DNA of 64,000 nt from Heptranchias perlo. Lineage: Eukaryota. This document shows, piece by piece, positions 8,866 to 12,596 of the stretch. Position 1 is the first letter of the stretch. The number at the start of each line of letters is the position of its first letter. Both the position numbers and the translations under genes were made by a program. The notes below the pieces were generated by a model that worked only from the letters and a program-made list of their open reading frames with translations, was not told the origin of the DNA and did no database searches. The DNA is taken from assembly GCF_035084215.1 (NCBI RefSeq), contig NW_027139268.1, forward strand, positions 62,001 through 126,000, in the 5' to 3' direction.

Positions 8866-9141
8866 CTTTCCTTTTGAGATATTCCTTTCCAGCGCGTAAA
8901 TATAACTGTAAAAGGTCAACCAGTTCTTCTTCCAACTGCCATTTCCAATGCTTGTTCCAGGAATCATCAGAATCCCATTTCTCCTTGGTCTTCACTGCAA
9001 GGTGATTGGTTGCGACCCATCTCATCCTGTCTGGCTCTAAACTAATATAATCCTTTCCATCATATCCAAACCGCATCGATCTCTTAATGGAGCCGTCTTC
9101 AGTGATCTCAACAGTCCTTATCCATTGGAAAATGTGAATTC
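8866..9141 (-). CDS. MHC class I-like gene A, exon 3 (alpha2), lacking C101 and C164
   Basis: 276 nt, phase 1; GIHIFQ..FGYDGKDYISL..W..TKEKW..YL..GKEYLKRK aligns to class I alpha2. Confidence 0.95.
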
Positions 9142-9931
9142 CTGTCAGTGACCAACCAGAGATCAATAATCAATAATCAATAGTTAATGGAGAATGTCCA
9201 TTTATTACTGATGTAACGGGAAGTTAGAGTCGCAGTCTGATCAGAGGGGAAAGGGGGTCCAGTGTCAGGTAGAAATGGGGGGTCAGATTTGTTAACCCCT
9301 TCTGAACCGTGACAGAATTATGGAAGACAATATCACGGTAAATCTCAGATGATAGGCACCATTTTTATCACATGACTTCCCCTCCCCCACTTCTCGAACT
9401 CGATACCCGTGAGTGCCGCTGGTGCACTGCCCTTGAGGACCAGAACCAGGTGTATATTTCTGATGTGCCAGTGGGCCTGTTTTGGGAACCACACTGGCCC
9501 CAAACCTCCATTTTGCCCCAATGTTGCGCTGCTGAGCCTGGACTTCTGGGAGCCAATCCAGTCCCGTACTGACCACCCGCAAATCACACACTCATCTCAT
9601 TTACACACCCACTGGCATTGGCTGAGCGCAGCGCCCATGTGACACGGACCTCCCCTGACGGGTGGGGGTGGGGATTTAAAGCGCAGTCTTTAAAGAGCCG
9701 CAAATGGCTGAAGATTGCAGCAGAGGGAAGGATCTAAACTTTCCCCCAAGACTGGGGTCCCATCAGGAGCTGGAATAAGAGGCTCATGTGAGATATTGTG
9801 AGACTTTTAAACAATGTGGTCACGGGAGGAGCAGGCAGAGGGTCTGGGAGAAGGGAGCAGGGCATTGGAAGGAGGGAGAAAAGAAGACCCAAAATTATAA
9901 TGAGAACAACCGTCAATCACTGATAGATGGA

Positions 9932-10195
9932 NNNNNNNNNNNNNNNNNNNNNNNNNNNNNNNNNNNNNNNNNNNNNNNNNNNNNNNNNNNNNNNNNNNNN
10001 NNNNNNNNNNNNNNNNNNNNNNNNNNNNNNNNNNNNNNNNNNNNNNNNNNNNNNNNNNNNNNNNNNNNNNNNNNNNNNNNNNNNNNNNNNNNNNNNNNNN
10101 NNNNNNNNNNNNNNNNNNNNNNNNNNNNNNNNNNNNNNNNNNNNNNNNNNNNNNNNNNNNNNNNNNNNNNNNNNNNNNNNNNNNNNNNNNNNNNN
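9932..10195. other. N-run next to a GA-rich tract; others at 18882-19059, 37567-37725 and 51264-51524
   Basis: Runs of N at paralogous positions, each adjoining (GA)n-rich sequence. Confidence 0.95.
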
Positions 10196-10294
10196 GATAG
10201 ATGGAGAGGGAGAGGGAGAGAGGGAGATAAAGAGAGATAGAGAGAGAGGGAGAGAGGGAGGCAGTCGCAGAGAGAGAAAGAGGGAGGCAGGCGC

Positions 10295-10325
<31 letters not shown>

Positions 10326-10600
10326 TAGAGAAGACACATGGACCAAGGGAGAGACTGACTGACAGAGAAAGTGAGAGACGGAGAAAGCATCAGATGGAGA
10401 CAGAGAAAGAAAGGCAAGGTGTGACAGAGAGATAGTGAGTGAGAGAAAGCAAGAGAGAGAGAATCAGATAGACAGAGAAAGTGAGAGACAAAGGGAGACG
10501 TAGAGAGAGACATAGGGAGAGAGAGACATAGGGAGAGACAGGGAGGCAGAGAGGGAGAGAGGGAGAGGGAGTGGGGGAGAGGGAGTGGAGGAGAGGGAGT

Positions 10601-11303
10601 GGGATTAGTTTGGGATTGATACAGGGCTATGGGGAGAGAGTGGGACAGTGGGATTAGTTTGGGATTGATACAGGGCTATGGGGAGAGAGTGGGACAGTGG
10701 GATTAGATCGGGATTGATACAGGGCCATGGGGAGAGAGCGGGACAGTGGGATTAGTTTGGGATTGATACAGGGCTATGGGGAGAGAGTGGGACAGTGGGA
10801 TTAGTTTGGGATTGATACAGGGCTATGGGGAGAGAGTGGGACAGTGGGATTAGTTTGGGATTGATACAGGGCTATGGGGAGAGAGCGGGACAGTGGGATT
10901 CGTTTGGGATTGATACAGGGCTATGGGGAGAGAGCGGGACAGTGGGATTAGTTTGGGATTGATACAGGGCTATGGGGAGAGAGCGGGACAGTGGGATTCG
11001 TTTGGGATTGATACAGGGCTATGGGGAGAGAGTGGGACAGTGGGATTAGTTTGGGATTGATACAGGGCTATGGGGAGAGAGTGGGACAGTGGGATTAGTT
11101 TGGGATTGATACAGGGCTATGGGGAGAGAGCGGGACAGTGGGATTCGTTTGGGATTGATACAGGGCTATGGGGAGAGAGCGGGACAGTGGGATTAGTTTG
11201 GGATTGATACAGGGCTATGGGGAGAGAGTGAGGCAGTGGGATTAGTTTGGGATTGATACAGGGCTATGGGGAGAGAGTGGGACAGTGGGATTCGTTTGGG
11301 ATT
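10601..11303. repeat. 49-bp G-rich minisatellite, ~14 units
   Basis: GGGATTAGTTTGGGATTGATACAGGGCTATGGGGAGAGAGTGGGACAGT. Confidence 0.95.
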
Positions 11304-11631
11304 GCTCCAGCAAATCGCAGGCACCGACACGATGAGGTGAATGGCCTCCTCCTATGCTGTAATGTCTCTGGTTCTATCTCTCACCAAGCTCTTTCCCATA
11401 TCGTCTTCTCTCTCCCTGATTACTTCCCGACACTGGTGTTTTATGTTCCTTTCTCCCTCGTTGCCACCTCTCCTTATCTCCCTCTCCTTTTTGTCACTTC
11501 TCTATTTCCCCATCTCTCTCCCTCCTCCTCTCTCTCCCTCCTCCTCACTCACTCACTCCCCAATTCCCACTCTCGAAATTCTCCTCCATTCCCCCGATAT
11601 CTATTATTTCCGAATTGGGAGAATGGAAGTT

Positions 11632-12135
11632 CATAAATAGAGGCCCAGGCTGTGGGGATGGGGAAGGCCGCAGGAGCAGAAGCAGTCCCCATAAATAAAG
11701 GCCCAGGCTGTGGGGATGGGGAAGGCCGCAGGAGCAGAGGCAGTCCCCATAAATAGAGGCCCAGGCTGTGGGGATGGGGAAGGCCGCAGGAGCAGAGGCA
11801 GTCTCCATAAATAGAGGCCCAGGCTGTGGGGATGGGGAAGGCCGCAGGAGCAGAGGCAGTCTCCATAAATAGAGGCCCAGGCTGTGGGGATGGGGAAGGC
11901 CGCAGGAGCAGAGGCAGTCCCCATAAATAGAGGCCCAGGCTGTGGGGATGGGGAAGGCCGCAGGAGCAGAGGCAGTCTCCATAAATAGAGGCCCAGGCTG
12001 TGGGGATGGGGAAGGCCGCAGGAGCAGAGGCAGTCTCCATAAATAGAGGACCAGGCTGTGGGGATGGGGAAGGCCGCAGGAGCAGAGGCAGTCTCCATAA
12101 ATAGAGGCCCAGGCTGTGGGGATGGGGAAGGCCGA
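11632..12135. repeat. 59-bp minisatellite, ~8.5 units (~3.5 units at 41161-41378)
   Basis: CATAAATAGAGGCCCAGGCTGTGGGGATGGGGAAGGCCGCAGGAGCAGAGGCAGTCTC. Confidence 0.93.
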
Positions 12136-12335
12136 GAAGCAGGTAAAATATAGAACAGCCAACTTAGTCACTAAAAACGAGGAGGTGGCCCAGGAGGATG
12201 TGATGTGGGACTGGTCGGGAAAGTGGGAACAGCTGGGATCAGAGAGCAAATTGACGTCAAAAATAATTGATTAATTCCCAATAGACAGCCATTAAACAGG
12301 CCGTCAGTGGGAGTTTCCTGTATCACTGATCTTAC

Positions 12336-12596
12336 CGGATGTGTGGTTCGTCCATTTTATTATTGTATTGAGATTCTCCATCGTCACATCGTAACGCATC
12401 TTCCCGAGATGACTGTAATAATTCCATTCTTCCACATCGAGAGAGTCTGTTAAGAATTGCTGTCTGGAAACCATATGTTGGGTGTCACTGTCATAATGGG
12501 ATAACACAACTCCATTAACCATCGTCATACCCATAAACTCAGGGCCATCCGTGTTGCCAGAAATTCCCGTGTACACCACAGTGAAGGAATCAGAGT
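12336..12596 (-). CDS. MHC class I-like gene A, exon 2 (alpha1)
   Basis: 261 nt; tttgacag| acceptor, G|GTAAG donor; DSDSFTVVYT..PEF..VNG..YDSDT..W..N86 sequon NHT matches the class I alpha1 pattern. Confidence 0.92.

What the first reader, a model, noticed from the sequence alone, without database searches (positions are those of the whole stretch)
8866..12596. Half-conserved groove: C-terminal anchors kept, N-terminal anchors lost, Trp-rich helices
Seen (HLA numbering, manual alignment): Y7>V, Y59>E/Q, Y159>Q, W167>L/V, Y/R84>W, H3>D, D29>N, while Y123, T143, K146, W147 and Y171 remain. There are extra tryptophans at 97 and in WN(KH/NY)WKWQ. Known: these positions bind the peptide termini in classical class I. 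Inference: the losses sit at the same end as the missing disulfide, suggesting an open or remodelled A-pocket end for N-extended peptides, lipopeptides or small metabolites.
Basis: partly seen in the sequence, partly recalled or inferred. Interest (0 to 1): 0.7.

Follow-up and report, generated by a model that had tools for sequence, protein, structure and literature searches.

The report
Shark UEA class I, two-part groove
This is an intact, spliced shark MHC class I gene, likely of the already published UEA family, whose binding groove has a tryptophan-rich end shared by the whole family and a gene-specific opposite end, so it would likely hold a peptide by its tail with the head protruding or modified; the family is known and its ligand is untested.

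Summary
The residue list is right: V7, E59, W84, Q159, L167, no C101/C164; Y123, T143, K146, W147, Y171 kept. The split is looser than titled, since Y171 is an N-terminal anchor and W84 replaces a C-terminal one (4 of 8 kept). The gene is an intact, spliced nonclassical class I gene, one of five copies lying between UDA-like and UFA-like genes. Its family appears shark-only and is most likely the published UEA lineage (about 90%, by synteny and distribution; that paper was not held). The traits are family-wide: C101 in 0 of 59, W152 plus W156 in 58 of 58 (0 of 117 outsiders). One thing is added here: alpha2 residues 117-157, intron 3 and alpha3 are homogenised among old paralogues by gene conversion, while alpha1 and alpha2 158-182 stay sublineage-specific across shark orders. 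So the groove has a shared F-pocket half and a specific A/B half. Best mechanism, inferred: a C-terminally anchored peptide-type ligand with an extended or modified N-terminus (0.45). The main rival is a small anionic non-peptide ligand. This scan met the same family before in another genome (e1-9130528). New member of a known kind.

The parts
19517..19568 (-). Leader exon of copy 1 (ATG at 19568)
   Evidence: 17 codons identical to the N-terminus of P0084/P0089, GT donor follows
12336..12596 (-). Alpha1 exon of copy 1 (D3, V7, G24, N29, E59, G67, R70, N77, W84, N86 glycosylation site); sublineage-specific half of the groove
8866..9141 (-). Alpha2 exon of copy 1 (W97, R99, V101, M114, F116, Y123, T143, K146, W147, W152, W156, Q159, L164, L167, Y171); no cysteine
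8942..9067 (-). Alpha2 residues 117-157: tract homogenised among paralogues, holds Y123, W133, T143, K146, W147, W152, W156
   Evidence: 4/126 and 5/126 nt differences to the old paralogues
8867..8941 (-). Alpha2 residues 158-182: divergent island between two homogenised stretches; lines the A end of the groove
   Evidence: 17/75 and 19/75 nt differences to the same paralogues; follows sublineage across species
8751..8865 (-). Intron between alpha2 and alpha3, GT-AG, nearly identical among all five paralogues
   Evidence: joint in contigs of 4 of 4 runs; 0-6 differences in 112-113 nt
8472..8750 (-). Alpha3 (C1 immunoglobulin) exon of copy 1, both cysteines kept
2648..2761 (-). Connecting peptide and transmembrane exon of copy 1; tail exons lie just outside the window (L036)
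51805..51856 (-). Leader exon of copy 2
41563..41823 (-). Alpha1 exon of copy 2 (228/258 nt identical to copy 1; basic helix at 65-71)
36258..36533 (-). Alpha2 exon of copy 2 (265/273 nt identical)
35865..36143 (-). Alpha3 exon of copy 2 (274/276 nt identical)
30248..30361 (-). Transmembrane exon of copy 2 (111/111 nt identical)

Best explanation
This intact, spliced shark nonclassical MHC class I gene, likely of the published UEA lineage, has a groove built from a family-wide tryptophan-rich F-pocket half and a sublineage-specific A/B half, and is predicted to hold a peptide-type ligand by its C-terminal carboxylate while the N-terminal end protrudes or carries a modification. Shown: gene structure, splicing of the alpha2/alpha3 joint, loss of the alpha2 disulfide, the residue pattern, the five-copy cluster, and the mosaic of homogenised and divergent segments. 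Inferred: (1) the heavy chain pairs with beta2-microglobulin, because H93, Q96, D119, G120 and D122 are kept; (2) W97, W133, W147, W152, W156, M114 and F116 pack into an aromatic core that narrows the C-E pockets and may offset the missing disulfide; (3) N77, T143, K146 and W147 still bind a carboxylate above a shallow hydrophobic F pocket (I81, F95, F116, Y123) capped by W84; (4) the A/B half, with small floor residues (V7, G24, S34, G67) and fixed charges (E59, R70, R99, E163), selects a restricted ligand set for each sublineage, read by an innate-like T cell or NK-type receptor.
For: K146 in 57 and W147 in 59 of 59, T143 in 48, N77 in 37: K146 is a surface residue (structural knowledge) and conversion alone would not keep it across shark orders. 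The N-terminal hydrogen-bond set is gone in this sublineage: no Y at 59 and Q159 in 6 of 6, V7 in 5 of 5 covered. The groove is not CD1-like greasy: mean Kyte-Doolittle -0.53 (A/B) and -0.14 (C-F), against -0.09 and 0.11 for the classical-like P0156 (this scale underrates Trp). Alpha1 and alpha2 158-182 are closer to orthologues in other shark taxa (0.67, 0.68) than to same-taxon paralogues (0.39, 0.52), while alpha2 117-157 and alpha3 show the reverse (0.71 vs 0.79; 0.80 vs 0.93). Precedent: HLA-F blocks its A pocket and presents N-protruding peptides (PMC7590165 passage). The AlphaFold model of copy 2 has a full class I platform with both helices, pLDDT mostly 84-94 over residues 21-190.
Against: Y/R84 is lost here (W84) and is R in only 9 and Y in 0 of 59. 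T143 is L or I in 2 of 6 clade members and I in the nurse-shark orthologue; Y123 is F or L in 2 of 6. The kept anchors lie in a converted tract, and T143, K146 and W147 are also kept in 77, 87 and 105 of 117 outsider class I proteins, so they may be plain inheritance. The C-F half is bulky (mean side-chain volume 175 against 144-158 for P0156, P0157, P0159; 171 for P0155) and may be filled shut. Dogfish UCA, which shares the cysteine loss and W97/W152/W156, has lost all three C-terminal residues. K146 also serves KIR binding, which offers another reason to keep it. No ligand data; no model coordinates for a cavity analysis.
Confidence: 0.45

Rival explanations
1. The C-F half is filled by the tryptophan cluster and is structural; the ligand is a small anionic non-peptide (fatty acid, lysolipid, acylated amino acid or metabolite) held in the A/B cavity by R70 and R99, working like MR1, ZAG or chicken YF1.
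For: R70, R99, W97, Q159 and L164 in 6 of 6 clade members from five shark genera; A/B half less bulky (149 against 161-166) and C-F half bulkier; fixed orthologues over deep time suit a fixed ligand; MR1, ZAG and YF1 chains are among the sequence and fold matches, though tied with classical chains.
Against: K146/W147 kept in 57 and 59 of 59; groove not hydrophobic on the scale used; copy 2 differs from copy 1 at 8 positions in 59-71, including G67R that would fill the B pocket.
Confidence: 0.3
2. The groove is closed or empty and the protein is a ligand for a germline receptor or chaperone; the shared alpha2-1 helix surface (117-157) is the docking site and the variable alpha1 helix tunes receptor choice.
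For: The most conserved stretch includes outward residues; inhibitory KIRs dock over the F pocket and need K146; absence of the disulfide fits a non-canonical platform.
Against: Sublineage-specific residues concentrate on groove-facing positions (7, 24, 59, 67, 70, 99, 159, 163, 167); part of the conservation is explained by conversion.
Confidence: 0.15
3. It binds ordinary 8-10-mer peptides through substitute contacts (E59, Q159, Y171 at the N end; W84 at the C end), like a low-polymorphism HLA-E-type molecule.
For: Y171 kept; other members keep Y59 (22 of 59) and Y159 (11 of 59); W97 with W156 occurs in a peptide-binding chicken class I chain.
Against: Only 4 of 8 anchors, no W167 in 59 of 59, no disulfide.
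Confidence: 0.07
4. The copy is a decaying duplicate and the substitutions are drift.
For: Recent tandem duplicates exist (the neighbour at contig 40.8-44.3 kb differs by 1 residue each in alpha1 and alpha2); alpha1 pN about equals pS between copies 1 and 2 (0.114 vs 0.123).
Against: All exons open with proper splice ends; spliced contigs; the same residues are kept in orthologues of four other genera.
Confidence: 0.03

Closest known systems
Shark UEA nonclassical class I lineage (Almeida et al. 2021; seen only as a reference title and through PMC10751288 and PMC12562908; content otherwise recalled)
   Same: Multicopy, MHC-linked, clustered with single-copy UDA and with UFA next to BRD2/B2M; named homologues only from sharks (82 of 83, one unnamed); peptide anchors partly lost.
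   Different: No sequence labelled UEA was seen. I recall UEA being described as very hydrophobic; this sublineage scores as charged in its A/B half. Whether the paper reports the conversion mosaic could not be checked.
Nurse-shark query 'Gcirratum_UCA_NODE_26056' in PMC10751288 Supp. File 10
   Same: By hand count: 69/92 identical in alpha2 and 52/87 in alpha1; V101, L164, W97, R99, W152, W156, Q159, R70 shared; likely the orthologue of this sublineage and likely UEA under an earlier label (inference).
   Different: It has F123, I143 and S84 where this gene has Y123, T143 and W84.
Spiny dogfish UCA (AF515705, as printed in the same supplement)
   Same: Lacks both alpha2 cysteines; W97, W152, W156.
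   Different: About 31/92 identical in alpha2 by hand count; has lost T143, K146 and W147.
Human HLA-F (functional analogue)
   Same: A-pocket network altered, C-terminal end kept, peptides protrude at the N end (PMC7590165 passage).
   Different: Not related by descent; HLA-F blocks the A pocket, whereas here the A/B residues are small and charged and the disulfide is absent.
Shark UFA and UGA (CD1-like), MR1, ZAG, chicken YF1
   Same: Class I fold with lost peptide anchors.
   Different: UFA-like and UGA-like genes are separate loci in this genome, keep the alpha2 cysteines, and the UGA-like alpha2 is 30% identical.
Concerted evolution of class I genes by gene conversion (PMC1397804 abstract; teleost alpha1 lineages with species-homogenised alpha3, PMC4364491 passage)
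   Same: Old groove lineages on a homogenised backbone.
   Different: Here the boundary runs inside the alpha2 exon, leaving a 75-nt divergent island between two homogenised stretches.

Membership tests
Shark UEA | Multicopy class Ib family | tested here: met
   Five alpha1 and five alpha2 exons on contig C1101; 2-10 members per named species in A1
Shark UEA | MHC-linked, in the cluster with single-copy UDA and UFA near BRD2/B2M (PMC10751288) | tested here: met
   UDA-like gene at C1101 about 14-15 kb (74% alpha2 to P0159) and UFA-like gene at about 256-263 kb (lineage names by eye); white-shark homologue LOC121291255 lies in the MHC-Ib cluster after BRD2 and B2M. B2M and BRD2 were not searched in G000.
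Shark UEA | Present in sharks, absent from rays and chimaeras (recalled from the abstract; title says shark lineage) | tested here: met
   82 of 83 hits carry shark names, 1 unnamed; profile search lists no ray or chimaera among family-level rows, then drops to 27-38% identity (best 120 of 526 shown). Absence is limited by what is annotated.
Shark UEA | Orthology to a sequence labelled UEA | not testable with these tools
   Paper not held; the string UEA does not occur in the PMC10751288 supplement; the matching query there is labelled UCA
Shark UEA | Loss of most invariant peptide-anchoring residues (recalled) | tested here: inconclusive
   4 of 8 lost in this gene; N-terminal set largely lost but K146/W147 kept family-wide
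Shark UEA | Three sublineages (recalled) | tested here: inconclusive
   Tree shows several supported clades, with an open backbone; cannot map to the published names
Dogfish UCA | No alpha2 cysteines, W97/W152/W156 | tested here: met
Dogfish UCA | Close sequence orthology to AF515705 and loss of T143/K146/W147 | tested here: not met
   about 31/92 identity by hand count; the three residues are kept here
Classical class Ia (shark UAA) | Eight anchors Y7, Y59, Y/R84, T143, K146, W147, Y159, Y171 | tested here: not met
   4 of 8
Classical class Ia (shark UAA) | Alpha2 disulfide C101-C164 | tested here: not met
   V101, L164
CD1-like UFA/UGA | Orthology to UFA or UGA; hydrophobic groove without peptide anchors | tested here: not met
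   Separate loci in G000, 30% alpha2 identity to the UGA-like exon; groove hydropathy not raised
Class I heavy chains | Binding to beta2-microglobulin | not tested
   Contact residues H93, Q96, D119, G120, D122 kept in 57-59 of 59 (their role is recalled); no complex prediction run

The most novel reading that the evidence does not exclude
UEA is a modular antigen-display family: gene conversion keeps one shared, disulfide-free, tryptophan-packed F-end and backbone in all copies, while selection has protected a set of ancient A/B-end modules (alpha1 plus a 75-nt island of alpha2), each tuned to one class of N-extended, N-acylated or anionic microbial ligand. This gene's module (E59, R70, R99, Q159, E163, W84) has been kept across five shark genera.
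Probability: 0.3. Interest if true: 0.62.

Novelty: new member of a known kind. Interest (0 to 1): 0.3.

Why it matters
The family is already described, so the gene is not a discovery. Its ligand appears to be open: the review read here gives lipid data only for UFA and UGA. The analysis narrows the test to one conserved sublineage and one half of the groove, and names the residues to mutate. A class I family that folds without the alpha2 disulfide (kept in 115 of 117 outsiders) would also show how far the platform can be rebuilt. The conversion mosaic warns that whole-protein trees and conserved-anchor arguments in this family can mislead.

Tried and rejected
Reading the UEA and UDA papers: not held, so all detail on them is recalled or second-hand; their supplements may already hold the residue pattern and the mosaic. 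Literature searches listed no held paper on the UEA groove, its ligand or conversion among UEA genes; subscription papers are not covered. Fold searches with the copy 2 model: class I fold, but classical, MR1 and YF1 chains tie (Z 23.6-24.5, rmsd 6.3-7.7 A, probably because alpha3 is mis-oriented without beta2m), so no ligand class can be read from them. Positive selection between copies 1 and 2: alpha1 pN 0.114 vs pS 0.123, groove 0.16 vs 0.09 on about 10 changes, not shown. Endosomal acidic-dileucine tail: found in 2 of 96 tails, both isoforms of this species, rejected as a family trait. CD1-like hydrophobic groove: not supported on the Kyte-Doolittle scale. Pocket volumes could not be computed, as model coordinates are not supplied (listing). 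No complex prediction was sent: a heavy chain with beta2m is a textbook pair and no beta2m sequence was fetched. Search of earlier findings by sequence and nearby place gave nothing.
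Full report
WHAT IS THERE. The interval covers the alpha1 and alpha2 exons of an MHC class I gene on the minus strand: leader 19568-19517, alpha1 12596-12336, alpha2 9141-8866, alpha3 8750-8472, transmembrane 2761-2648. All are phase 1 with AG/GT ends and the spliced frame has no stop. Tail exons lie just outside the window (L036). A second complete copy lies about 27-32 kb further along. The ectodomain of copy 1 is contained letter for letter in P0084, and the copy 2 exons match P0003/P0089; both carry the source label Heptranchias perlo. 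Contigs of 4 of 4 runs laid on alpha2-alpha3 cover the exons only and join 8750 to 8866 across a GT-AG intron. The runs come from at most two samples and their RNA status is a guess. Some pieces carry the alpha2 helix letters of copy 1 or its near-identical neighbour with no differences, but two sites read differently from copy 1 in these runs, so expression is shown for the family and is only likely for this copy.

THE OBSERVATION. Against 117 outsider class I alpha2 domains (of 144 non-family proteins, those with full cover), the losses are rare: C101 is kept in 115, C164 in 117, Y159 in 93, W167 in 92. The title overstates the symmetry. Of the eight anchors listed in PMC4364491 (passage), Y171 (N end) is kept and Y/R84 (C end) is lost, so four remain. 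H3 and D29 are a structural pair (PMC8236899 passage). W97 is common (36 of 117), whereas W152 with W156 is found in 0 of 117.

THE FAMILY. The alpha2 exon finds 83 proteins; 82 carry shark names and one is unnamed. A profile search adds more shark members and then falls to 27-38% identity (best 120 of 526 shown). G000 has five copies on one contig, with a UDA-like gene on one side and a UFA-like gene on the other (names assigned by eye). A white-shark homologue, LOC121291255, is listed in the MHC-Ib cluster that follows BRD2 and B2M, which PMC10751288 describes as holding single-copy UDA, multicopy UEA and UFA (passages). The same supplement has a nurse-shark query labelled UCA that is 69/92 (alpha2) and 52/87 (alpha1) identical to copy 1 by hand count. 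True dogfish UCA is about 31/92, and also lacks both cysteines. No sequence there is labelled UEA, and the UEA paper was not held. I therefore file the gene as UEA by synteny, copy number and distribution, at about 90%. An earlier scan note reached the same reading on another genome (e1-9130528).

FAMILY-WIDE PATTERN. Alignment A1 has 59 rows: P0086 plus 58 of the 83 hits, with fused models, fragments and redundant isoforms left out. Counts: C101 0, C164 5, Y7 0, W167 0, Y84 0 (R 9, W 4), Y59 22 (F 25), Y159 11, Y171 42, Y123 43, T143 48, K146 57, W147 59, W133 59, M114 59, W152 and W156 58 of 58 with letters, W97 45. So the disulfide loss, the tryptophan cluster and the kept K146/W147 are family traits, and the A end varies by gene. 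In a tree of alpha1-alpha2 (63 rows, P0080 dropped as short, four outgroups) both window copies sit in a clade of 6 rows (support 100/99) with one member each from Pristiophorus, Heterodontus, Mustelus and Cetorhinus. It has R70, W97, R99, Q159 and L164 in 6 of 6, W84 in 5, no tyrosine at 59, and T143 in only 4.

MOSAIC EVOLUTION. Copy 1 differs from the two old paralogues in the genome at about 88 and 86 of 258 alpha1 bases (synonymous 0.52 and 0.45). In alpha2 residues 117-157 it differs at only 4 and 5 of 126 (synonymous 0.09; Fisher p 3e-4 and 2e-3), in intron 3 at 6/112 and 1/113, and in alpha3 at 2 and 1 of 278. Alpha2 residues 158-182, lying between those stretches, differ at 17 and 19 of 75. 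Near-identity of a non-coding intron points to gene conversion, and the divergent island suggests that conversions across it are removed by selection (inference). Across species the same split appears in protein: for this clade alpha1 and alpha2 158-182 are closer to orthologues in other taxa (0.67, 0.68) than to same-taxon paralogues (0.39, 0.52), while alpha2 117-157 and alpha3 are closer to paralogues (0.79, 0.93) than to orthologues (0.71, 0.80). A second clade agrees for alpha1, alpha2 158-182 and alpha3 but is tied (0.79 each) for 117-157. Rows within a taxon are not independent, so these means are descriptive. Conversion among class I genes has precedent (PMC1397804 abstract; PMC4364491 passage).

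HOW IT MOST LIKELY WORKS. Pocket assignments are from general knowledge of HLA structure. The C-F half is bulky (mean side-chain volume 175, against 144-158 for three outgroup proteins and 171 for a fourth) and shared by all copies. The A/B half is smaller (149 against 161-166), charged and sublineage-specific. Hydropathy is not raised on the Kyte-Doolittle scale, which underrates tryptophan. The AlphaFold model of copy 2 shows a complete platform, but fold matches do not separate peptide from non-peptide binders. I commit, at 0.45, to a peptide-type ligand anchored by its C-terminal carboxylate at N77/T143/K146/W147, with an N-terminal end that protrudes or is modified, as HLA-F does by another route (PMC7590165 passage). 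The strongest support is K146 in 57 of 59 across shark orders. The strongest objections are W84, the T143 losses in close orthologues, the loss of all three residues in dogfish UCA, and the conversion tract. A small anionic non-peptide ligand held by R70 and R99 (0.3) and a ligand-free receptor ligand (0.15) remain live.

PAPERS SEEN. PMC10751288: passages, one tenth-to-fifth of the main text (part 2 of 7), supplement parts 4, 97, 98 and two searches. PMC12562908, PMC8236899, PMC4364491, PMC7590165: passages. PMC1397804: abstract. Almeida 2020 and 2021: reference titles only, otherwise recalled.

VERDICT. This is a new member of a known shark family whose ligand appears to be untested. The two-part groove and its conversion mosaic are a modest addition that sharpens the experiment. 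Interest 0.3.

Noticed in passing
window 41563-41823 vs 12336-12596: Copies 1 and 2 differ at 19 alpha1 residues, 8 of them in helix positions 59-71; copy 2 has a strongly basic stretch at 65-71 including R67, while alpha3, leader and transmembrane exons are almost identical.
   Followed up: partly
G000:C1101:39302-45847 (L002, L032): A third, very recent duplicate of copy 1 just outside the window, one residue different in each of alpha1 and alpha2.
   Followed up: partly
alignment A1; L004 (G000:C1101:242557-242829): C164 survives unpaired in 5 of 59 members, including one paralogue in this genome, so C101 was likely lost first; an extra cysteine at 45 occurs in 21 of 59.
   Followed up: no
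proteins P0084, P0001, P0002, P0004: Database models that fuse two tandem class I genes into one 600-900 aa protein; likely annotation artefacts of the tandem array.
   Followed up: partly
window 25999-26031 and L036 9341-9373: Tail exon with a tyrosine motif; a matching pattern occurs in 39 of 96 family tails (isoforms included), resembling the conserved tyrosine of classical class I tails (recalled).
   Followed up: partly
window 23168-23200 and 54490-54522: Alternative last exon ending in an acidic dileucine-like motif, seen only in this species' isoforms (2 of 96 tails).
   Followed up: yes
L008-L019: Twelve identical alpha2 exons of another class Ib lineage spread over several contigs, one on C1101 at 426 kb; covered by earlier scan notes.
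   Followed up: no
window 878-2644, 10598-11304, 11632-12142, 14502-18528, 44129-50909, 59084-64000: Large minisatellites (periods 19, 49, 58, 89-90 bp) in the introns, repeated in each gene unit with different copy numbers; they could promote the unequal exchange behind the array.
   Followed up: no
window 7000-8260, 34765-35652, 42697-43998, 55384-56286: Retrotransposon-like reading frames (reverse-transcriptase-like pieces; the last has a GIY-YIG-like motif typical of Penelope elements; identification recalled).
   Followed up: no
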